7,407 bases of DNA, from IMG/VR virus record IMGVR_UViG_3300028976_000046. One strand, 5' to 3'. Source of the stretch: a virus (taxonomy: Duplodnaviria; Heunggongvirae; Uroviricota; Caudoviricetes). A program made the position numbers and the translations under genes. The notes beneath the pieces were generated by a model. The model ran no database searches. It was not told the origin of the DNA and saw only the letters and a list, made by a program, of their open reading frames with translations. Below are positions 1-7,407 of this stretch, piece by piece. Numbering within the stretch: the first letter of the stretch is position 1; every line of letters starts with the position of its first letter.

Positions 1-318
1 ATGAAAAAGATAGCTGCTATATCATTAATTAGTGTTTTTCTTATGTCTGGGTGTGCTGTACATAATGATGAGACAAGTATCGGTAAATTTGGTCTTGCAT
101 ATAAAAGTAATATTCAGCGTAAACTCGATAACCAATACTACACCGAAGCCGAAGCTTCTTTAGCCAGGGGTAGAATATCTGGTGCAGAAAATATAGTAAA
201 AAATGATGCAGTTCATTTCTGTGTTACTCAGGGCAAAAAAATGCAGATAGTTGACCTGAAGACAGAAGGTGCAGGATTACATGGCGTCGCTCGTCTGACA
301 TTCAAATGTGGAGAGTGA
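1..318 (+). CDS. Small putative secreted protein or lipoprotein (105 aa), function unknown; AT-rich gene in the flank left of the att core
   Basis: ORF starts exactly at window position 1. N-terminus MKKIAAISLISVFLMSGC is a signal peptide with a lipobox-like LMSGC (Cys18). Low GC compared with the phage region. Its size (105 aa) and position would fit E. coli yegR beside the cyaR/P2 locI site, but that is synteny reasoning from memory, not sequence recognition. Confidence 0.55.
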   Translation: MKKIAAISLISVFLMSGCAVHNDETSIGKFGLAYKSNIQRKLDNQYYTEAEASLARGRISGAENIVKNDAVHFCVTQGKKMQIVDLKTEGAGLHGVARLTFKCGE

Positions 319-337
319 GAATAGATTCAAGACTACC

Positions 338-463
338 ATGCACATATTTATTTTATCTGTGATGGGATATTCTTCAACACCATTATTGAATGTGAGTAAT
401 AATGACAAACAGATAGATGAAACTAAAGCAGAATTTTTATTTTATGCAGCCATCAGAAAATGA
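338..463 (+). CDS. Possible micro-ORF (41 aa) with hydrophobic N-terminus, directly downstream of the lipoprotein gene
   Basis: ATG at 338 to TGA at 461-463 reads MHIFILSVMGYSSTPLLNVSNNDKQIDETKAEFLFYAAIRK. It is below the length cut-off of the supplied ORF track. No clear Shine-Dalgarno sequence, and the region is AT-rich, so a chance ORF is quite possible. Confidence 0.15.
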   Translation: MHIFILSVMGYSSTPLLNVSNNDKQIDETKAEFLFYAAIRK

Positions 464-646
464 TGTCAAAAATGTTCCAATGCTTTAGGTTCATTTTTTG
501 GTAAGCGTCAAACATGCGCGTTCTGGCTGTGCGTAACCGGAACCTGTGCGAGCACGATGTCGATAAGTGAAAAGCATCGTGCTATGAAGGAGGATTCTAT
601 CGATGTGGTCAATGGAAGACGGTGACCAGGGATAGGGCTTATGCAT

Positions 647-673
647 AAAAAATAAGCCCGTGTAAGGGAGATT
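647..673. other. attL: P2-type attachment core (27 bp), interpreted as the attL junction between host flank and prophage P' arm
   Basis: Sequence AAAAAATAAGCCCGTGTAAGGGAGATT equals the 27-bp P2 att core as I recall it. It lies about 80 bp beyond the 3' end of int, as in P2 where int is transcribed toward attP. On the minus strand it reads AATCTCCCTTACACGGGCTTATTTTTT, a short GC stem plus T-run identical to my recollection of the 3' end of the CyaR sRNA (the locI attB). Confidence 0.55.
647..673 (-). terminator. Probable intrinsic terminator for int, formed by the att core on the minus strand
   Basis: Minus-strand reading CCCUUACACGGG followed by CUUAUUUUUU: a short GC stem and U-run located downstream of the int stop at 753. 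Confidence 0.35.
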
Positions 674-752
674 TAGGGTGTCACCAGTAGGGGCTTTCAA
701 CGGTACAATGCGGGTTTGAGCGGCATAAATTACCACTGAAAGCCCTTAAACG

Positions 753-1762
753 TTACTCTACTGTGGACACTGTGTGGACACTCTCGGCCTCAGTACCACC
801 TCTTAGCGGATTAAGAGAAATGGCGTCCTGAAGGTACTCTGGCGCAAAATGAGCGTAAACCATAGTTTGCTCAATCCGCGTGTGACCTAGTATCCGTTGT
901 AGCGTGATAATACTTCCTCCATTAATCATGAAATGAGTGGCAAAGCTGTGCCTTAGTGCATGTGTGGCTTGCCCCATTGGCAAATCCGGTTTTATTGCTT
1001 TCATTGTTCGTCTGAAGCGAGGGTAATCAGCATCAGGGAATAAAAAACCTCGTTTGTTATCCGCGATCATTTTGGCAACAGCCTCTGAGATCGGGACGGT
1101 GCGTGGTTTGTTTTCGTTTTAACAAACGTGACGCGGTTATGGATGATATTTTCTGCTTTCAAACGAGCTGCTTCTCCCCAACGTGCTCCAGTACTCAGGC
1201 AAAGAATCGCAATCTTTTTGTTGTCGCCGTCAAGAGCAGCAAGCAGTAAGGCAATTTCTTCCTGCGTGAGATAGCCTGTGTCTGGTTTTTCCTCCTTAAG
1301 CCTTTTTGTCCCTCTGATAGGGTGCTCACCAAAGAATAACTCCGCTTCAATCAGGGCTGTAAACATGCCGCTAATACATGTTAAATCACGATTGATACTC
1401 GAAGGTTTAATACCCTGACTTCTTCGGGTGGCGCAGTACTGGCTGATAAGCGATTTCGTAATTTGAAATGCGCATGGGTTATTCGTTATTTTTGTGAAGA
1501 TTTCAATTTTTCCAAGATTAGATTTCCCATGCTCTTCGTGTTTACCCTTTAAATCCCACCAGATCTGTGTCAGCTCCGACAGACGTCGCTTGTCTGTTGG
1601 TTTTGATAGCCATTCTTTATTGTGGTGGTTGTACAACGTGTATTTCTCGAAAGCGACAGCTTCGCTTTTCTTATCAAACTTCCTACGGATGCGTTTTCCA
1701 TTACGTCCAGTAGGGCGGATGTCCACTTCATATCGACCATCATCGAGTTTTTTGATTGCCAT
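753..1762 (-). pseudogene. int: P2-type tyrosine integrase, disrupted by a frameshift and read as two ORFs (N-terminal part 1067-1762, C-terminal part 753-1070)
   Basis: The two adjacent minus-strand ORFs (231 aa and 105 aa) are in different frames and together give about 337 aa. The C-terminal part contains the catalytic-domain motifs HALRHSFATHF and LGHTRIEQTMVYAHF with the active-site Tyr. The frame change maps to the AAAACAAACC run (plus-strand GGTTTGTTTT, about 1104-1113). A sequencing error cannot be excluded. Confidence 0.8.
762..781. promoter_or_regulatory. Tandem direct repeats TGTGGACAC x2, candidate Int arm-type binding sites of the P' arm, overlapping the 3' end of int
   Basis: Copies at 762-770 and 773-781, 11 bp apart. 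TGTGGACA is the P2 Int arm-site consensus as I remember it. A second feature nearby is a 9-bp inverted pair GGGCTTTCA (691-699) and TGAAAGCCC (738-746). Confidence 0.4.
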
Positions 1763-1877
1763 CAGAAAACCCTCCGAGTGGTGTGTTTTTTTGCGACTAC
1801 TAATCGCTTTTTTCGTGGTGGCTGAAATTTAGCCACCAATAGTAGGCACTTGTGATGAATATATTCACGATGAATTG

Positions 1878-2177
1878 TTAACCAGTCTTTTGACCGGAGT
1901 GGGGCGACGTTGTTTCGTTTTGCCCAAAGTGTGCGAGAGCGGGCGCAATTTGCCCGGACTCAGGAGCGACCTGATTGGTCATGAACCATAAAGTGTATTT
2001 GGTGAATTGTGGGGTCTGCAGGATGTTCATCATGACATCTGTTGGAGGTGTTGAACGACCACTTTCATAGTAACTCAGCGTGCCATACGGAACCCCTGTT
2101 AAATCAGCAAGTTGTTGTCTGCTCAAATACTCTGATTTTCGCATTAAGACTATCTTCTCGCTTATCGTGTTTGACAT
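1878..2177 (-). CDS. C: Immunity repressor C (99 aa)
   Basis: 99-aa ORF divergent from cox, with an HTH segment (LSRQQLADLTGVPYGTLSYYESG). Length and sequence match my recollection of P2 C. Its start codon (2175-2177) overlaps the -35 of the early promoter. Confidence 0.85.
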   Translation of the reverse strand: MSNTISEKIVLMRKSEYLSRQQLADLTGVPYGTLSYYESGRSTPPTDVMMNILQTPQFTKYTLWFMTNQVAPESGQIAPALAHFGQNETTSPHSGQKTG

Positions 2178-2210
2178 GGTGTTTAGATCTCAATAGTATT
2201 TGGTTTAGAT
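2171..2210 (+). promoter_or_regulatory. Early promoter Pe with operator direct repeats O1/O2
   Basis: -35 TTGACA at 2171-2176, a 17-bp spacer, and -10 TAGTAT at 2194-2199. Two identical 8-mers GTTTAGAT at 2181-2188 and 2203-2210, 22 bp centre to centre, flank the -10, which is the P2 C-operator arrangement. Confidence 0.6.
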
Positions 2211-2240
2211 GTAGATTGTTTAGTGCTTGGATGTGGGCAC

Positions 2241-2270
2241 TAAAAGGCATTATAAGGCATTAAACGCAAT
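2241..2270 (-). promoter_or_regulatory. Candidate Pc (repressor promoter) -10 with three tandem 10-bp cox-box-like repeats
   Basis: Minus-strand TATAAT (plus coordinates 2249-2254), oriented toward C and convergent with Pe. Tandem units TAAAAGGCAT, TATAAGGCAT and TAAACGCAAT at 2241-2270; the third contains TTAAACGCA, fitting the recalled Cox-box consensus TTAAA(G/C)NCA. The -35 is weak. Confidence 0.4.
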
Positions 2271-2291
2271 TCATGAGGGCTGGGGGACGAC

Positions 2292-2567
2292 ATGAGCAAG
2301 CAAGTAACACTCATGACTGATGCGATTCCTTATCAGGAGTTCGCAAAACTAATAGGAAAATCGACAGGAGCGGTTCGTCGGATGATCGATAAAGGAAAGC
2401 TGCCTGTAATTGATATGACCGATCCACAATCAGCTTCAGGTCGTGCAGGTGAATATTGGGTATACCTTCCGGCATGGAATAACGGACTAAAACTGGCTTA
2501 TGAAAGCCGCCCTAAAGAGATTCGTGACGGCTGGTTGATGTGGTTAGGTCTCGGTGAACCACGTTAA
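2292..2567 (+). CDS. cox: Cox (91 aa): excisionase and repressor of Pc
   Basis: 91-aa ORF, first gene rightward from Pe, with a G-rich ribosome-binding site upstream. Sequence matches my recollection of P2 Cox. Confidence 0.85.
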   Translation: MSKQVTLMTDAIPYQEFAKLIGKSTGAVRRMIDKGKLPVIDMTDPQSASGRAGEYWVYLPAWNNGLKLAYESRPKEIRDGWLMWLGLGEPR

Positions 2568-2577
2568 GGAGAACCGT

Positions 2578-2748
2578 ATGAACGAGCCTCGTTGTATTGC
2601 TCAGTTATTGCGTAACGAAAGCCCCAGGGCGATTGACTTCACCATCACCCACGGTAAGGGGCGTAAGGGAATCATTATCCGCACCAAAAAACAGAGTCCG
2701 TTAAAGAAGGCTCTGACCTTTCTGAAAAGCCGGAGGGTCTGGAAATGA
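2578..2748 (+). CDS. Small early protein, P2 orf78-like (56 aa from the ATG; the ORF track extends it to a GTG at 2554)
   Basis: ATG at 2578 is preceded by AAGGAGA at 2565-2571. The stop overlaps the B start (ATGA). Position between cox and B matches P2 orf78. Confidence 0.55.
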   Translation: MNEPRCIAQLLRNESPRAIDFTITHGKGRKGIIIRTKKQSPLKKALTFLKSRRVWK

Positions 2749-3245
2749 CAGTGATGACGCTCAATCTCGTCGAAAAACAGCCAGCAGCTATGCGCCGGAT
2801 AATTGGCAAGCATCTTGCCGTCCCTCGCTGGCAGGAGACATGTGATTATTATAATCAGATGATGGAGCGCGAACGGCTAACGGTTTGCTTTCATGCGCAG
2901 TTAAAACAACGTCACGCAACGATGCGTTTTGAAGAAATGAACGACGTCGAACGTGAACGGCTGGTTTGTGCAATTGATGAACTGCGTGGGGCATTCTCAA
3001 AACGCCGTCAGGTCGGTGCAAGTGAGTATGCATATATTAGTTTTTTAACAGTCAGTCAGCGTCGTACTTTATTTATGCATGCGGGATTGACAGAAAAAGA
3101 ATTCAATCAGCCGTACTGGCGCATTAATGAAGAATCATGTTACTGGCGTGATGCTTTATTCCGTGCATTACGTGAATTGTTCAGCCTGTTTGAGTATGCA
3201 CCGACAATTCTGACATCGGTAAAACCAGAGCAATATCTGCATTAA
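2745..3245 (+). CDS. B: Replication protein B (166 aa), needed for lagging-strand synthesis and thought to act as a helicase loader
   Basis: 166-aa ORF translationally coupled to orf78; size and position as in P2 gene B. Confidence 0.75.
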   Translation: MTVMTLNLVEKQPAAMRRIIGKHLAVPRWQETCDYYNQMMERERLTVCFHAQLKQRHATMRFEEMNDVERERLVCAIDELRGAFSKRRQVGASEYAYISFLTVSQRRTLFMHAGLTEKEFNQPYWRINEESCYWRDALFRALRELFSLFEYAPTILTSVKPEQYLH

Positions 3246-3266
3246 GTAAGTAACCAGAGTTTCTAA

Positions 3267-3294
3267 CGCACTTAATTGTGCGGGGCTTCTTTTT
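3267..3294 (+). terminator. Weak hairpin plus T-run downstream of B (possible attenuator)
   Basis: CGCAC (3267-3271), loop TTAATT, GTGCG (3278-3282), then GGGCTTCTTTTTG. The stem is only 5 bp, so this is tentative. Confidence 0.25.
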
Positions 3295-3308
3295 GCCTGG
3301 AGAAAGTC

Positions 3309-3533
3309 ATGCATACAGTTTCTGAAAATCAGTGCGGTAAATACGCATTACTGCTGCAACAGACCAGAACCGAAGCACAGGCCGACGCGGCGACGCGCTT
3401 TTCTTCTCATCTTGACGCCATGATTCGCCACATCACAAAGGCGGAGTTATCCCGCGTGGAGATAGTCGAGCTGCTCAGTCAGGAGTCGGAAAAATTTCAC
3501 AATATCGGATTGTCTCGCGGGGAGGTACTTTGA
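3309..3533 (+). CDS. Small early protein, P2 orf80-like (74 aa from the ATG; track ORF begins at TTG 3276)
   Basis: ATG at 3309 preceded by GGAGAAA. Protein [17 protein letters not shown]... has no recognisable domain. Confidence 0.55.
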
Positions 3534-3832
3534 TGTCCTGTTCTCATTCAGTTGTATTACTGAATAACGCCTTAAAAATCGCCGTTATGGAAAATGGTGA
3601 TTTGTCTCTTATTCAACTTTGTCTTGATAAAGAAAAACGCGACATAACTGAATCTGTTATCGCGATTTATCAGAATGAATTAAACCTCCTGTCTGATGTG
3701 GTCAATTTACTTGTTAAACGCGCTGTATTCCACAAGCAAATTTCCTCCGTGGATGAACTGACAAAATTAACGACAGAACTTGCCAGTTATTGCGCTGATG
3801 TATCCAGGAAACTTAACGATAAAAGGAGCTGA
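3533..3832 (+). CDS. Small early protein, P2 orf81-like (99 aa), predicted helical, function unknown
   Basis: ATG at 3533 overlaps the orf80 stop (TGATG) and is preceded by GGGGAGG, indicating translational coupling. Confidence 0.55.
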   Translation: MSCSHSVVLLNNALKIAVMENGDLSLIQLCLDKEKRDITESVIAIYQNELNLLSDVVNLLVKRAVFHKQISSVDELTKLTTELASYCADVSRKLNDKRS

Positions 3833-3834
3833 TA

Positions 3835-4059
3835 ATGCCGGACAACGTAGATTTTATTCAGGAACAACAGGCTGAATTACTGGAGCGCCAGATTAACGCG
3901 GCAAGGGTAAAACATTGCGGTGCTTCTGCGCTGGTTTGCGAAGAGTGTGACGCGCCAATACCTGCTGCCCGTCGTGCGGCTTATCCGTCAGCCACGCGTT
4001 GTGTTTCCTGTCAGTCAGTCTTTGAAGCAAAAAACAAACATTACCGGAGAACGGCATGA
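3835..4059 (+). CDS. DksA/TraR-family C4 zinc-finger protein (74 aa), P2 orf82-like
   Basis: CxxC...CxxC arrangement (CEECDAPIPAARRAAYPSATRCVSCQ) near the C-terminus, typical of the TraR/DksA C4 zinc-finger family. AAGGAG ribosome-binding site upstream. Confidence 0.7.
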   Translation: MPDNVDFIQEQQAELLERQINAARVKHCGASALVCEECDAPIPAARRAAYPSATRCVSCQSVFEAKNKHYRRTA

Positions 4060-4331
4060 GTATTCGTATTGAAATTGGCGAACGTTATGTCGTTACCAGT
4101 GACAGCTTTCAGTTTATTCTCCACGAGAAAAAGAGAGCGGAAAGCGGTAAAAACGCCGGTCAGGAATGGCTGGCAGTGGTTGGTTATTACCCGAAATTAA
4201 GCCAGCTCGTTTCCGGCCTGATGCATCACGATATTCTGACCGGAAGCGCAAAGTCTTTCGCTGATTTAAACGCGCAGGTTGAGCAACTCAGCAGGCGTTG
4301 TTCAGAGGCTTTTGGCTCATATGGCCGTTAA
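4056..4331 (+). CDS. Small early protein, P2 orf83-like (91 aa), function unknown
   Basis: ATG overlaps the orf82 stop (ATGA). It is the last small ORF before gene A. Confidence 0.55.
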   Translation: MSIRIEIGERYVVTSDSFQFILHEKKRAESGKNAGQEWLAVVGYYPKLSQLVSGLMHHDILTGSAKSFADLNAQVEQLSRRCSEAFGSYGR

Positions 4332-4701
4332 AGCCTCCGGGCGTTTTGTCCCTCCGTCAGCATTTGCCGCAGGCACCGGTGAGACGTTTACCGGTGCTTA
4401 TGCATGGAATGCGCCACGCGAGGCCGTCGGGCGCGAAAGACCCCTTACACGTGACGAGATGCGTCAGGTGCAAGGTGTTTTATCCACGATTAATCGCCTG
4501 CCTTACTTTTTGCGCTCGCTGTTTACTTCACGCTATGACTACATCCGGCGCAATAAAAGCCCGGTGCACGGGTTTTATTTCCTCACATCCACTTTTCAGC
4601 GTCGTTTATGGCCGCGCATTGAGCGTGTGAATCAGCGCCATGAAATGAACACCGACGCGTCGTTGCTGTTTCTGGCAGAGCGTGACCATTATGCGCGTCT
4701 G
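4321..4701 (+). pseudogene. A: 5' fragment (about 127 codons) of rolling-circle replication initiator gene A, interrupted by an IS
   Basis: From MAVKASGRFVPPSAFAAGTG... to ...LLFLAERDHYARL the sequence agrees with my recollection of the P2 gpA N-terminus (761 aa in P2). After codon 127 the reading frame runs into the IS terminal repeat and stops at 4750-4752. Confidence 0.75.
4698..4701. repeat. Candidate 4-bp target-site duplication TCTG (left copy; right copy at 7281-7284)
   Basis: TCTG directly abuts both ends if the IS spans 4702-7280. A 4-bp duplication is known for IS21. With this model the A reading frame continues in phase across the insertion. Confidence 0.4.
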
Positions 4702-4773
4702 CGTATTTTCATGAAAGGAGATCACTCAATAACTTCCATCGAGATCGGGTAATAACATTTGAACAGATCGCTG

Positions 4774-4837
4774 AATAACATCGATGGAGATCACTTTTGA
4801 CTCATTTTGTTATTCAGTGATCTCCATCAATGTTATT
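4774..4837. repeat. Internal inverted pair of the terminal-repeat motif in the IS left end
   Basis: AATAACATCGATGGAGATCAC (4774-4794) and GTGATCTCCATCAATGTTATT (4817-4837) are inverted copies matching at 20 of 21 positions, separated by a 22-bp spacer, in the istA leader. Confidence 0.6.
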
Positions 4838-4892
4838 GGAACTTCACAGGTGTGTTGATCTGTATCTTTTGCCATTCCGGTAAAGGATACCT

Positions 4893-6434
4893 ATGCCAAC
4901 AGTTCCAATTTCTATGAGAAAACTTAAAGAAATTCTTAGGCTTAAATACGGTGTTGGACTCAGCCATCGACAAATTGGTCGTAGTCTTGCAATCTCCCCT
5001 TCCGTTGTATCCAGATATGCTAATCGGGCGGCTCAACTTGGCATAAAGCAGTGGCCCTTACCTACAGGATGGGATGATACAAAACTAAAACATGCGTTCC
5101 TTCAGACCCAGGTTAAGATGAAGAAGCACTCTCTGCCTGACTGGGCTACAGTACACCGGGAACTGCGTAATAAATGCGTGACGCTGCAGCTACTCTGGGA
5201 AGAATACTGTGAGCGTAATCCAGGCGGTTTTTACAGCTATAACCATTACTGCCGGATGTACCGTGAATGGCTCAAAACCACTTCACCATCAATGCGTCAG
5301 GTACATAAAGCTGGCGAAAAACTTTTCGTTGATTACTGTGGACCTACCGTTGGCGTTACCGACCCTGAGACCGGAGAAATAAGAACTGCTCAGGTCATCG
5401 TAGCTGTTCTCGGGGCATCAAGTTACACATGGGCAGAGGCCACCTGGTCTCAGCAGCTTGAAGACTGGGTGATGAGTCATGTTCGCTGCTTCCAGTGGTT
5501 GGGTGGCGTTCCTGAACTTGTTGTTCCGGACAATCTGAAAAGCGCCACATCCAGGGCATGTAAGTATGATCCTGACGTTAACCCTACCTACCAGCAGATG
5601 CTTGAGCATTATAATGTCGCAGTTTTGCCTGCGCGGCCACGTAAACCGAAAGATAAAGCCAAAGCTGAAGTTGGCGTTCAGGTTGTTGAACGCTGGATCA
5701 TGGCCCGAATCAGGCATGAGATCTTCTACAGCCTTGCATCGCTTAATCAGCGCATTCGGGAGTTGCTGGAAAGACTGAATAACAAAATAATGCAGAAGTT
5801 GGGTTATTCACGTGCAGAACTCTTCATCCAGCTTGATAAACCCGCACTGAAGCCTCTTCCTGAAGCCAGTTACAGTTACACCCTGGTGAAGAAAGTCAGA
5901 GTTCATGCCGATTACCACGTGGAAATCGACAAACATTACTACTCGGTTCCATGTTCGCTGTTAGGCCAGCAACTGGAAGCATGGATCTCCGGAGAACTGG
6001 TAAGACTCTTCAATCAGGGGCAGGAGGTTGCTGTGCACCCGCGCAAGCGTACTTATGGCTACAGTACCCGCAACGAGCACATGCCTGAAGCTCATCGACA
6101 GCATGCCACCTGGACGCCAGAGCGTCTTCTGGAATGGGCGGGGCACATAGGCAGTGAAACTCATAGTTATGTGCTTCATATACTGAACTCTCGTCCACAT
6201 CCGGAACAAAGCTATCGCTTCTGCCTTGGACTCCTGAACCTTCATAAAAAATACAGTAAAGCCAGACTTAATGCAGCATGTGCAAGAGCTCTGAAAACAA
6301 AGGTATGGCGTCTGTCAGGTATTAAATCGATCCTGGAAAAAGGTCTGGATAAACAACCTGTTCAGGATCCAAAACCAGATCTGTTATCCACGATGGAACA
6401 CGAAAACGTACGCGGCAGTGAGTATTACCACTGA
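4893..6434 (+). CDS. istA: IS21-family transposase IstA (513 aa)
   Basis: N-terminal HTH (LSHRQIGRSLAISPSVVSRYA), long catalytic region, immediately followed by istB. Ribosome-binding site AAAGGA upstream. Confidence 0.9.
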   Translation: MPTVPISMRKLKEILRLKYGVGLSHRQIGRSLAISPSVVSRYANRAAQLGIKQWPLPTGWDDTKLKHAFLQTQVKMKKHSLPDWATVHRELRNKCVTLQLLWEEYCERNPGGFYSYNHYCRMYREWLKTTSPSMRQVHKAGEKLFVDYCGPTVGVTDPETGEIRTAQVIVAVLGASSYTWAEATWSQQLEDWVMSHVRCFQWLGGVPELVVPDNLKSATSRACKYDPDVNPTYQQMLEHYNVAVLPARPRKPKDKAKAEVGVQVVERWIMARIRHEIFYSLASLNQRIRELLERLNNKIMQKLGYSRAELFIQLDKPALKPLPEASYSYTLVKKVRVHADYHVEIDKHYYSVPCSLLGQQLEAWISGELVRLFNQGQEVAVHPRKRTYGYSTRNEHMPEAHRQHATWTPERLLEWAGHIGSETHSYVLHILNSRPHPEQSYRFCLGLLNLHKKYSKARLNAACARALKTKVWRLSGIKSILEKGLDKQPVQDPKPDLLSTMEHENVRGSEYYH

Positions 6435-6445
6435 TACGGGATCCA

Positions 6446-7195
6446 ATGATGAATCATCTTTACGAACAACTGACCGCACTTAAACTCACCGGCTTCCGTG
6501 ATGCGCTTAAAAAGCAACTTGCTCAGCCGGGCACATACCAGGAGCTGGGCTTCGAAGAACGCCTGTCATTACTGACAGCAGAAGAACTAACCTGCCGTGA
6601 AAACAGGAAGGCAGAGCGTCTGATCAAACATGCACGGTTCAGACTTAATGCTGAGTTATCAAAGCTGGATTATCGTAACAATAGAGGGCTGGACAGGGCC
6701 CTCATCCGTTCACTCAGTCAGGGAAACTGGTTAACCCTGAAACAAAATATTTTACTGACCGGGGCCACCGGCAGCGGTAAAACGTTCCTGGCATGTGCAC
6801 TTGGTCATAATGCCTGCCGACAGGGATACAAGGTCTACTATTATCGCCTTAAAGCGCTGATGGAACAGTGCTATCAGGGGCATGCTGATGGAAGATACAG
6901 CAAACTTTTGACCAGGCTGAATAATAGCGATCTGCTGCTTCTGGATGACTGGGGGCTGGAACCTCTCTCATCAGAACAGCGTAGCGACCTGCTGGAAATA
7001 GTGGATCTGATGTACCAACGAGGCTCAATCATCGTAGTGAGCCAGTTGCCGGTGGAAAACTGGTACAAAATGATCGGAGACTCCACACATGCGGATGCCA
7101 TCCTAGATCGACTGGTTCATGGCAGTATCAAGATCGAACTTAAAGGAGAATCAATGCGGAAAATACAATCACCGTTGACCGAAGGAGATCAGTGA
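6446..7195 (+). CDS. istB: IS21-family ATP-binding helper protein IstB (249 aa)
   Basis: Walker A GATGSGKT and Walker B LLLLDDWG motifs; starts 11 bp after the istA stop. Confidence 0.9.
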   Translation: MMNHLYEQLTALKLTGFRDALKKQLAQPGTYQELGFEERLSLLTAEELTCRENRKAERLIKHARFRLNAELSKLDYRNNRGLDRALIRSLSQGNWLTLKQNILLTGATGSGKTFLACALGHNACRQGYKVYYYRLKALMEQCYQGHADGRYSKLLTRLNNSDLLLLDDWGLEPLSSEQRSDLLEIVDLMYQRGSIIVVSQLPVENWYKMIGDSTHADAILDRLVHGSIKIELKGESMRKIQSPLTEGDQ

Positions 7196-7231
7196 AGGTA
7201 ATTTAAAAACGGTTCTGTGAAAGTGACACGA

Positions 7232-7280
7232 ACCGATCTCCATCGATGTTACTCACCGATCTCCTTCACGGTAATACGCA
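7232..7280. repeat. Right terminal inverted repeat of the IS, with two GGAGATC-containing repeat units
   Basis: Its reverse complement aligns with 4700-4750 at about 37 of 49 positions. The inner unit GATCTCCATCGATGTT (7235-7250) is a perfect inverted match to AACATCGATGGAGATC at 4777-4792. Confidence 0.7.
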
Positions 7281-7284
7281 TCTG

Positions 7285-7407
7285 ATTACTGCTGCCCTGA
7301 TTATTGTCTGTTTTGTTGTTCTCCTGCTTATGCCTTTTCCGGGCGTCCCCCTGGCGGGGCGGGCTGTCGTGAACGGAGCCAGCGGAGCTGTCTCCGCCCT
7401 GGCGGGC
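7285..7407 (+). other. Open frame in the right flank, running off the window end; identity unresolved
   Basis: One frame is open to the end: LITAALIIVCFVVLLLMPFPGVPLAGRAVVNGASGAVSALAG, hydrophobic then Gly/Ala-rich. The other two plus frames have early stops. The region is GC-rich, and two minus-strand frames are also open, so coding status is uncertain. Confidence 0.25.

What the first reader, a model, noticed from the sequence alone, without database searches (positions are those of the whole stretch)
4321..7284. IS21-family element inserted in replication initiator gene A of a P2-like prophage
Gene A encodes the cis-acting rolling-circle initiator, so an insertion after codon 127 should abolish prophage replication. 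The IS has ~50-bp imperfect terminal inverted repeats and a candidate 4-bp direct repeat TCTG at both junctions, which fits a simple IS21-type transposition event. Together with the int frameshift this makes the prophage doubly defective.
Basis: partly seen in the sequence, partly recalled or inferred. Interest (0 to 1): 0.5.

Follow-up and report, generated by a model that had tools for sequence, protein, structure and literature searches.

The report
ISEc12 joining prophage and plasmid DNA
A well-known E. coli jumping gene (ISEc12) does cut the replication gene of a dormant P2-like virus, but the DNA on its far side belongs to a conjugative plasmid, so this is an ordinary mobile element with mismatched flanks, most likely an assembly join.

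Summary
The element is real and already known. Window 4700-7280 is a complete 2581-bp ISEc12 (IS21 family: istA, istB, ~50-bp imperfect inverted repeats, TG...CA ends). It is identical to copies in other E. coli. Its left flank is the first 127 codons of gene A of a P2-like prophage next to yegR. That prophage also has a 4-bp frameshift deletion in int.

The TCTG "direct repeat" is spurious, because its left copy borrows the IS's own terminal TG. With the ends fixed by more than 15 other copies, the flanks are GCGTC and TCTGA. And 7281-7407 is not gene A: it is 100% identical to the leading region of IncF plasmids.

Each junction has its partner elsewhere:
- A sibling assembly is identical over 1-7280 and then resumes gene A, with an 8-bp duplication TGCGCGTC.
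- A metagenome contig carries the plasmid's left junction, with a 6-bp duplication TCTGAT.

So the window combines halves of two ordinary insertions, joined through the identical IS. The join is either an assembler path through the repeat (about 70%) or real recombination that integrated the plasmid (about 25%). Short reads cannot tell these apart. Interest is low.

The parts
1..318 (+). Host gene yegR (lipoprotein). This is the chromosomal border of the prophage.
   Evidence: Window 1-4702 is 100% identical to the E. coli MS7163 and S88 chromosomes.
753..1762 (-). P2-type integrase gene, split into two ORFs by a frameshift. The cause is a 4-bp deletion near 1105, relative to the intact int of the ATCC 11775 prophage.
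   Evidence: One search shows ORFs at 753-1070 and 1067-1762. RefSeq marks the gene 'frameshifted' in MS7163.
1878..4331 (.). P2-like early region: C repressor (1878-2177, minus strand), cox (2292-2567), orf78-like, B (2745-3245), and the orf80-83 homologues up to 4331.
   Evidence: same gene order as P2.
4321..4699 (+). 5' fragment of replication gene A (codons 1-126, plus the first base of codon 127). The reading frame continues into the IS and stops at 4752, giving a 143-aa product without the catalytic domain.
   Evidence: There is no Pfam or NCBIfam hit. The P2 ori nick site is at codon 620.
4692..4699 (.). TGCGCGTC, the left copy of the 8-bp target duplication of the gene A insertion. 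Its right copy is absent from the window.
   Evidence: Sibling locus L006 reads ...TGCGCGTC|IS|TGCGCGTCTGCCGGGG.
4700..7280 (+). Complete ISEc12 (IS21 family), 2581 bp, with ends TGCGTATT...AATACGCA.
   Evidence: There are 0 mismatches to the copies in L006, the ATCC 11775 prophage and plasmid pMS7163A.
4700..4757 (+). Left terminal inverted repeat, with GGAGATC-type internal repeats. Further copies lie at 4786 and 4819.
4893..6434 (+). istA, the DDE transposase (513 aa).
   Evidence: NF033546 scores 310 bits against a cutoff of 160. PF00665 and PF22483 also match.
6449..7195 (+). istB, the AAA+ helper ATPase (248 aa). Walker A is GATGSGKT and Walker B is LLLLDD.
   Evidence: NF038214 scores 270 bits against a cutoff of 200. 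PF01695 scores 227 bits.
7224..7280 (-). Right terminal inverted repeat.
7281..7407 (+). IncF plasmid leading-region sequence, lying between hok/psiA and the ssb-like, DUF932 and traM genes. It is not gene A. The first 6 bases, TCTGAT (7281-7286), are the right copy of the duplication of a plasmid-borne ISEc12 insertion.
   Evidence: The partner junction ...GACTCTGAT|TGCGTATT is in metagenome contig L024.

Best explanation
Window 4700-7280 is an intact copy of ISEc12, a known and active IS21-family insertion sequence. It transposes using the IstA DDE transposase, with the IstB AAA+ ATPase delivering the target, and it makes 5-8-bp target duplications.

In an ExPEC lineage related to S88 and MS7163, ISEc12 inserted into codon 127 of gene A of a P2-like prophage at yegR. 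This leaves a 143-aa stub and cuts the promoter-proximal part of the gene off from the catalytic domain and the internal ori. That prophage already had a frameshifted int, so it should be unable to excise or to replicate.

The right-hand junction in the window belongs to a second, sequence-identical ISEc12 copy. That copy was inserted, with a 6-bp duplication TCTGAT, into the leading region of an IncF plasmid.

The window therefore joins the left junction of one ordinary insertion to the right junction of another, through the 2581-bp repeat. I think the join was most probably made by the assembler following a path through the repeat (about 70% of my belief). The main alternative is a physical crossover between the two copies.

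Shown here: the identity and ends of the IS, both flanks, the lack of a duplication, and both partner junctions in other sequences. Inferred: the loss of gpA function and the cause of the join.

The confidence of 0.7 applies to the whole statement, including the assembler origin of the join. For the parts shown directly (ISEc12, hybrid flanks, no duplication) my confidence is above 0.95.
For: Identity and ends of the IS:
- NCBIfam and Pfam hits for IstA and IstB are above their cutoffs.
- RefSeq names identical copies ISEc12.
- There are 0-2 mismatches over 2581 bp to 14 other copies.
- The ends are TG...CA in every copy. Each of the 15 single insertions with both junctions visible has its own matched 5-, 6- or 8-bp duplication, and the tandem in L020 has one at its outer flanks. 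The published ISEc12 duplication ACTGC in tssM agrees (PMC10711316).

Left flank:
- Window 1-4702 is 100% identical to the S88 and MS7163 chromosomes, where gene A is intact.
- The exact 143-aa stub occurs on 17-24 other contigs.
- In L006 the sequence is identical over 1-7280 and gene A then resumes after TGCGCGTC.

Right flank:
- It is 100% identical to IncF plasmids. Of 4811 places, 4756 are on plasmids. There is no phage match.
- pMS7163A, from the same lineage, carries a 100% identical ISEc12 in its leading region.
- Metagenome contig L024 shows the matching plasmid left junction with TCTGAT.

Assembly reading:
- The window ends exactly 127 nt past the IS, and 127 is a common maximum k-mer size.
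- L024 ends 55 nt into the IS and L007 ends 91 nt into it. This is the behaviour of de Bruijn contigs at repeat borders.
- Neither junction pairing occurs in 5426 complete E. coli genomes or in 72,556 plasmids.
Against: - No reads or long-range data were available, so the assembler explanation is inferred from contig-end arithmetic and from priors.
- An assembler normally breaks at a 2.6-kb repeat rather than crossing it. The crossing could therefore reflect real linkage information.
- The source assembly could not be identified, so the IS copy number in that genome is unknown.
- L024 comes from a different sample and stops inside the IS. It shows that a plasmid left junction with TCTGAT exists, but not what lies beyond that IS copy.
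- Loss of gpA function is inferred from domain content and was not tested.
Confidence: 0.7

Rival explanations
1. The join is a real chromosome-plasmid junction. Homologous recombination between the gene A copy and a plasmid-borne copy of ISEc12 has integrated the IncF plasmid into the prophage. Alternatively, an IS21-type replicon fusion started from the chromosomal copy and used the plasmid target TCTGAT. Either way the result is an Hfr-like state, and it may be present in only part of the population.
For: - The two IS copies are 100% identical over 2581 bp, so they are good recombination substrates.
- The contig does run uninterrupted from the chromosome through the IS into plasmid DNA.
- IS21-family elements are known for replicon fusion through tandem copies (references 36 and 37 as cited in PMC10122671).
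- A natural tandem (ISEc12)2 with a 3-bp spacer exists in L020.
- 55 of the 4811 places of the 127-bp flank are chromosomal, so plasmid segments do become integrated.
- The plasmid left junction in L024 is equally compatible with a cointegrate.
Against: - Integration gives exactly the same four junction sequences as two separate insertions, so the window carries no information that favours it.
- Fixed integration of large IncF plasmids is rare, at roughly 1% of the places.
- The contig stops exactly one k-mer length into the plasmid. This points to a tangled assembly graph rather than long-range support.
- No complete genome shows this arrangement.
Confidence: 0.25
2. This is a simple IS21-type insertion into gene A with a 4-bp TCTG duplication and gene A continuing at 7281.
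For: The four bases TCTG can be read at both junctions. The left flank is gene A.
Against: - The left TCTG includes the invariant terminal TG of the IS.
- 7281-7407 shares at most 12-nt chance matches with P2 or with the sibling prophage and matches no phage record.
- It is 100% plasmid sequence.
- The true simple insertion at this site has TGCGCGTC and is followed by ...TGCCGGGGATGAATG.
Confidence: 0.01
3. The IS-to-plasmid junction arose by an IS-adjacent deletion. In this model, the ISEc12 copy that already sits in the plasmid leading region (as at 18095-20675 of pMS7163A) deleted about 9.25 kb up to position 29931.
For: pMS7163A has an identical ISEc12 in the same orientation, 9.25 kb upstream of the 127-bp site.
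Against: A deletion would leave no target duplication and no new left junction. Yet L024 shows the plasmid sequence running uninterrupted up to TCTGAT and then into the IS left end. That is the signature of a fresh insertion at this site.
Confidence: 0.04

Closest known systems
ISEc12 (IS21 family), for example the copy that interrupts tssM in E. coli ST131 clade C/H30 (PMC10711316)
   Same: It is the same element: 2581 bp, with 0-2 mismatches, the same TGCGTATT...AATACGCA ends, the same istA and istB, and gene inactivation by insertion. The ACTGC-flanked tssM copy was recovered here as L012 and L019.
   Different: The target is gene A of a P2-like prophage. In sibling assemblies the duplication at this site is 8 bp rather than 5 bp. 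In this window the two flanks come from different replicons.
ISEc12 in gene A codon ~432 of the cpxP-linked P2-like prophage (L005; 74 of 5426 complete E. coli genomes)
   Same: The same IS, in the same orientation, in the same gene of a P2-like prophage. That case is a clean simple insertion with the duplication AGAGG.
   Different: It is a different prophage, attachment site and lineage, and the insertion lies about 900 bp further into the gene. Both flanks there are gene A.
IS21 tandem (IS21)2 and cointegrase-mediated replicon fusion (plasmid R68.45; Reimmann and Haas, and Schmid et al., as cited in PMC10122671)
   Same: It is the same family, with the same two-protein machinery. A natural (ISEc12)2 with a 3-bp junction was seen in L020. 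A fusion would give exactly the chromosome-IS-plasmid junction seen here.
   Different: No tandem is present in the window, and there is no evidence that a fusion, rather than an assembly join, produced this sequence. The R68.45 details rest on my own knowledge and on the reference titles. Those papers were not held in the library.
Bacteriophage P2 gene A (gpA), the replication endonuclease that nicks at an ori inside its own gene
   Same: The first 127 residues are 124/127 identical to P2 gpA, and the upstream gene order is the same.
   Different: Only the N-terminal sixth of the 761-residue protein is present. The PF05840 domain and the nick site at codon 620 are missing from the window.

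Membership tests
IS21 family insertion sequence | Two consecutive genes, istA followed by istB, on one strand | tested here: met
   The ORFs are at 4893-6434 and 6449-7195, 14 nt apart.
IS21 family insertion sequence | IstA is a DDE (rve-type) transposase with an N-terminal helix-turn-helix | tested here: met
   NF033546 transpos_IS21 scores 310.5 bits against a cutoff of 160. PF00665 scores 40.8 bits and PF22483 scores 59.6 bits. There are weak HTH hits at residues 10-46.
IS21 family insertion sequence | IstB is an AAA+ helper ATPase with Walker A and Walker B motifs | tested here: met
   NF038214 scores 270 bits against a cutoff of 200. PF01695 scores 227.5 bits. The motifs are GATGSGKT at residue 105 and LLLLDD at residue 162.
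IS21 family insertion sequence | Imperfect terminal inverted repeats that end 5'-TG...CA-3' and contain repeated internal motifs | tested here: met
   The ends are TGCGTATT and AATACGCA. About 50 nt align with one indel. GGAGATC/GATCTCC motifs occur at 4717, 4786, 4819, 7184, 7235 and 7258.
IS21 family insertion sequence | A short (4-8 bp) direct target duplication flanking the element | tested here: not met
   In the window the flanks are GCGTC and TCTGA (1 of 5 bases match) or, taking 8 bp, TGCGCGTC and TCTGATTA. The feature is met for the same element elsewhere. Across the other copies examined the duplications are 5, 6 or 8 bp, including TGCGCGTC in the sibling L006. The failure reflects hybrid flanks, not the kind of element.
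ISEc12 (named element) | Near-identity in DNA to copies annotated as ISEc12 | tested here: met
   There are 0-2 mismatches over 2581 bp to copies whose genes RefSeq names 'IS21-like element ISEc12 family'. The ISfinder reference entry itself was not available.
P2 gpA replication endonuclease (Phage_GPA, PF05840) | The N-terminus is homologous to P2 gpA | tested here: met
   124 of 127 residues and 372 of 379 nt are identical to P2. DNA identity to Peduovirus genomes is 98.9%.
P2 gpA replication endonuclease (Phage_GPA, PF05840) | The catalytic Phage_GPA domain and the internal ori nick site are present | tested here: not met
   The 143-aa product has no Pfam or NCBIfam hit. In the sibling, PF05840 lies in the 3' fragment. 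The P2 nick is at codon 620. Nothing after 7280 is gene A.
Simple (single-event) IS insertion in gene A | The target sequence continues on the far side of the IS after a duplicated target | tested here: not met
   The right flank is IncF plasmid DNA. Continuity is seen only in sibling L006.
IS-mediated plasmid integration (Hfr-like cointegrate) | Both hybrid junctions lie on one molecule, shown by long-range data | not testable with these tools
   Only one hybrid junction is visible and only 127 nt of plasmid are present.

The most novel reading that the evidence does not exclude
The contig is physically correct. In that case, in a natural ExPEC isolate of the S88/MS7163 type, an IncF plasmid has been integrated into the chromosome through ISEc12, inside a cryptic P2-like prophage. 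The plasmid backbone is the kind that carries sit and other virulence genes in this lineage. This would be a naturally occurring Hfr-like state, or a subpopulation that switches between a free and an integrated plasmid.
Probability: 0.22. Interest if true: 0.35.

Novelty: already known. Interest (0 to 1): 0.15.

Why it matters
The result matters mainly as a correction. The element is a catalogued IS, and disruption of a prophage gene by an IS is routine. Anyone using this contig should not read it as evidence of a clean gene A insertion with a 4-bp duplication. Without long reads, it should also not be read as evidence that plasmid genes lie in the chromosome.

If the junction were real, it would document ISEc12-mediated integration of a large conjugative plasmid in an extraintestinal pathogenic lineage. 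That would be relevant to chromosome mobilisation and to the stabilisation of plasmid virulence genes.

The side observation that ISEc12 has hit P2-like prophages at five or more independent sites, always in one orientation, might interest people who study IS target choice or prophage decay.

Tried and rejected
1. The IS ends fixed by other copies place TG inside the IS.
2. Aligning 7281-7407 to gene A, P2 or any phage gave no match.
3. I searched for the exact right junction in several collections and found it in none:
   - 5426 complete E. coli genomes
   - PLSDB
   - GTDB representative genomes
   - JGI and other metagenome contigs
   - IMG/VR
4. The left junction was absent from the complete genomes and from IMG/VR.
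5. I tried to trace the source contig in three ways, without success:
   - Through the 143-aa stub. This returned siblings only, and similar places are collapsed by the tool.
   - Through IstB. It occurs in 42,388 blocks, which is too many.
   - Through a protein search with junction-spanning peptides. None of the best 120 hits carries IS-derived residues.
6. The IS-adjacent deletion model for the plasmid junction is made unlikely by the TCTGAT left junction in L024.
7. An Rfam scan of the window found nothing.
8. The classical IS21 papers (PMC552178, PMC11337337) are not held in the library. The cointegrate mechanism is therefore cited second-hand from PMC10122671 and from my own knowledge.
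9. A literature search for cis-action of P2 gpA returned nothing useful. That point rests on the P2 RefSeq annotation and on general knowledge.
Full report
**What is in the sequence**

The window opens with the host gene yegR (1-318). It then runs through the early region of a P2-like (Peduovirus) prophage, in P2's gene order:
- int on the minus strand, split into two ORFs (753-1070 and 1067-1762)
- the C repressor
- cox
- an orf78 homologue
- gene B
- four small ORFs
- the start of gene A at 4321

Window 1-4702 is 100% identical to the chromosomes of E. coli S88, MS7163 and others. In those genomes int is likewise annotated as frameshifted, and gene A is intact at 2283 bp. Compared with the intact int of the prophage at the same site in ATCC 11775, the window lacks 4 bp near position 1105.

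Bases 4321-4699 are 98.9% identical to gene A of many Peduovirus genomes. They encode 124 of the first 127 residues of P2 gpA.

**The insertion sequence**

The element has the following features:
- ORFs at 4893-6434 and 6449-7195 encode an IS21-family transposase (NF033546, 310 bits, cutoff 160; rve and Mu-transposase C-terminal domains). They also encode an IstB helper ATPase (NF038214, 270 bits, cutoff 200; PF01695, 227 bits; Walker A GATGSGKT, Walker B LLLLDD).
- RefSeq names identical proteins 'IS21-like element ISEc12 family'.
- I extracted both junctions of the element from more than 15 other loci with unrelated flanks. In every one the element starts TGCGTATT and ends AATACGCA and is 2581 bp long.
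- In the window this places it at 4700-7280.
- It has 0 mismatches to the copies in sibling locus L006, in the ATCC 11775 prophage and in plasmid pMS7163A. It has 2 mismatches to most other copies.
- The two ends align over about 50 nt with one indel and carry repeated GGAGATC motifs.

The element is therefore ISEc12, a known IS21-family member.

**The claimed duplication fails**

Every other single insertion with both junctions visible has a matched direct repeat immediately outside TG...CA. The tandem in L020 has one (CCTGC) at its outer flanks:

| Length | Duplications seen |
|---|---|
| 5 bp | CCTTG, AGAGG, CCTTT, TCTGT, ACTGC, ACGTA, ACTTT, CTGGT, GCACC, TATGG |
| 6 bp | CTTTGC, TCAGTA, CCTCTC, GTGCTC |
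| 8 bp | TGCGCGTC |

The published ISEc12 insertion in tssM of ST131 has ACTGC (PMC10711316).

In the window the flanks are ...GCGTC and TCTGA..., which match at 1 of 5 positions.

**The right flank is plasmid, not gene A**

- Bases 7281-7407 match no phage record, even at low stringency.
- They share only chance matches of 12 nt or fewer with P2 or with the sibling prophage.
- They are 100% identical to a stretch of IncF plasmids in 2237 of 5426 complete E. coli genomes. Of 4811 places, 4756 are on plasmids.
- In p120899_146 and pMS7163A the stretch lies in the leading region, between psiA/hok and the ssb-like, DUF932, SLT and traM genes.
- The plasmid reads ...CCTGTTCTGAC|TCTGATTACTG..., so homology starts exactly at 7281.

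**Both junctions have partners elsewhere**

The exact 143-aa product of the truncated gene A (127 gpA residues plus 16 IS-encoded residues) is on record in 17-24 other contigs, for example from E. coli KTE5 and KTE7.
- In L006 (GCA_000459375.1) the sequence is identical to the window from 1 to 7280. It then continues ACGCA|TGCGCGTCTGCCGGGGATGAATG..., which is gene A resuming after an 8-bp duplication TGCGCGTC. The rest of the prophage follows.
- In L007 the contig stops 91 nt into the IS.

For the plasmid side, I searched for the predicted left junction. It turned up in metagenome contig OAUY01000412.1 (L024):
- The contig is 98.8% identical to pMS7163A 25439-29937.
- It runs ...CTGTTCTGACTCTGAT|TGCGTATTTTCATG... 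and ends 55 nt into the IS.
- Together with the window's ACGCA|TCTGATTACTG, this defines an ordinary ISEc12 insertion into the plasmid with a 6-bp duplication TCTGAT.
- It also argues against an IS-adjacent deletion from the copy that pMS7163A already carries 9.25 kb upstream.

**Interpretation**

The window contains the left half of one standard insertion (gene A, duplication TGCGCGTC). It also contains the right half of another (IncF leading region, duplication TCTGAT). The two are joined through an IS body that is identical in both copies.

Two states of the genome would produce these junction sequences:
- Two separate copies, one chromosomal and one on the plasmid.
- A plasmid integrated by recombination or by IS21-type replicon fusion.

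Both states contain the same four junctions, so short-read data cannot separate them.

I favour an assembler path through the repeat, at about 70%, for these reasons:
- The window ends exactly 127 nt beyond the IS, and 127 is a usual maximum k-mer size.
- L024 and L007 end exactly 55 and 91 nt into the IS. This is the expected behaviour of de Bruijn contigs at the first shared k-mer of a repeat.
- The same logic implies that the plasmid flank is itself a branching node in the source graph.
- Fixed chromosomal integration of these plasmids is rare, at about 1% of places.
- No complete genome or PLSDB plasmid has either hybrid arrangement.

This remains an inference. I could not reach the source assembly or its reads.

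Real recombination stays at about 25%:
- The two copies are perfect 2.6-kb homologies.
- IS21-family elements are known for replicon fusion through tandem copies (references cited in PMC10122671).
- A natural tandem (ISEc12)2 with a 3-bp ACG spacer exists in L020.

**Functional consequence**

In the lineage that carries the gene A insertion, the early operon would produce a 143-aa stub. The stub has no recognisable domain. The Phage_GPA domain lies beyond the IS, and so does the ori nick site, which is at codon 620 in P2.

With int frameshifted as well, calling the prophage doubly defective is reasonable. It is an inference from sequence. That gpA acts in cis is general P2 knowledge and was not tested here.

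In L006 a 648-aa ORF starts inside the IS right end and reads into the 3' part of gene A. Whether it is expressed is unknown.

**Comparison with what is known, and verdict**

ISEc12 is catalogued, and it commonly inactivates genes, such as tssM in ST131 (PMC10711316). It also sits in gene A of another P2-like prophage, at about codon 432 with the duplication AGAGG, in 74 of 5426 complete genomes. It occurs at three further sites in P2-like prophages as well.

The finding is a real but ordinary feature, with an incorrect duplication and an incorrect reading of the right flank. Novelty: already known. Interest: about 0.15.

Noticed in passing
L005 5537-8117; L009 8657-11237; L010 7546-10126; L011 4991-7571; window 4700-7280: ISEc12 has inserted into P2-like prophages at five or more independent sites, each time in the same orientation as the early operon. 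The sites are gene A codon 127, gene A codon ~432 (74 of 5426 complete genomes), an AAA ATPase gene downstream of A in ATCC 11775, between the DUF7380 and portal genes, and a DUF5405 ORF. This could reflect target or orientation preference, or simply the abundance of both elements.
   Followed up: partly
L020 4252-9416 (GCA_041899235.1, CP169118.1): This locus holds a head-to-tail tandem (ISEc12)2. The abutted ends are separated by only 3 bp (ACG) and the outer duplication is CCTGC. This is the arrangement described as the reactive transposition intermediate of IS21.
   Followed up: partly
window 7281-7407; L022 (pMS7163A) 29931-30057, 24546-24667, 21323-21410: The 127-bp plasmid flank is one of three related copies in the IncF leading region (100%, 93%, and 98% over 88 nt). 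Each copy lies upstream of ssb-type or anti-restriction-type genes. The region to its right folds more stably as single-stranded DNA than shuffled controls (z = -2.9). From memory it might correspond to the Frpo/ssi-type single-strand promoters, but this was not tested.
   Followed up: partly
window 1067-1110 (int, minus strand): The int frameshift is a 4-bp deletion (GTTT in the plus-strand alignment) near 1105, relative to the intact int of the ATCC 11775 prophage at the same yegR site. S88 and MS7163 share it, so it predates the IS insertion.
   Followed up: yes
L006 12926-14872: In the sibling with the simple insertion, a 648-aa ORF starts inside the right end of ISEc12 and reads in frame into the 3' part of gene A. 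That part contains the Phage_GPA domain. An N-terminally truncated gpA could in principle be made from IS-borne signals.
   Followed up: no
window 4692-4699 and L006 12961-12968; other loci: The same IS makes target duplications of 5, 6 and 8 bp at different sites. The 8-bp target TGCGCGTC begins with the same four bases as the IS end (TGCG).
   Followed up: partly
window end (7407); L024 end; L007 end: Three contigs end at distances from an IS border that could equal assembler k-mer sizes. These are 127 nt past the IS in the window, and 55 and 91 nt into the IS in L024 and L007. The window also starts exactly at the ATG of yegR, which suggests that the left edge was cut at a gene boundary and that the right edge is a contig end.
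   Followed up: partly
L008 1571-4150 (pA468_p1); H61, H62 and H112-H114: Other IncF plasmids carry ISEc12 in the same orientation in or beside this leading-region segment. In pA468_p1 its right end lies 33 bp upstream of the window's junction (duplication CCTTT). In H61, H62 and H112-H114 the istB end and a flank-like match are joined within 443-561 bp of the record. pMS7163A has a copy 9.25 kb upstream. The leading region seems to be a repeated landing zone.
   Followed up: partly
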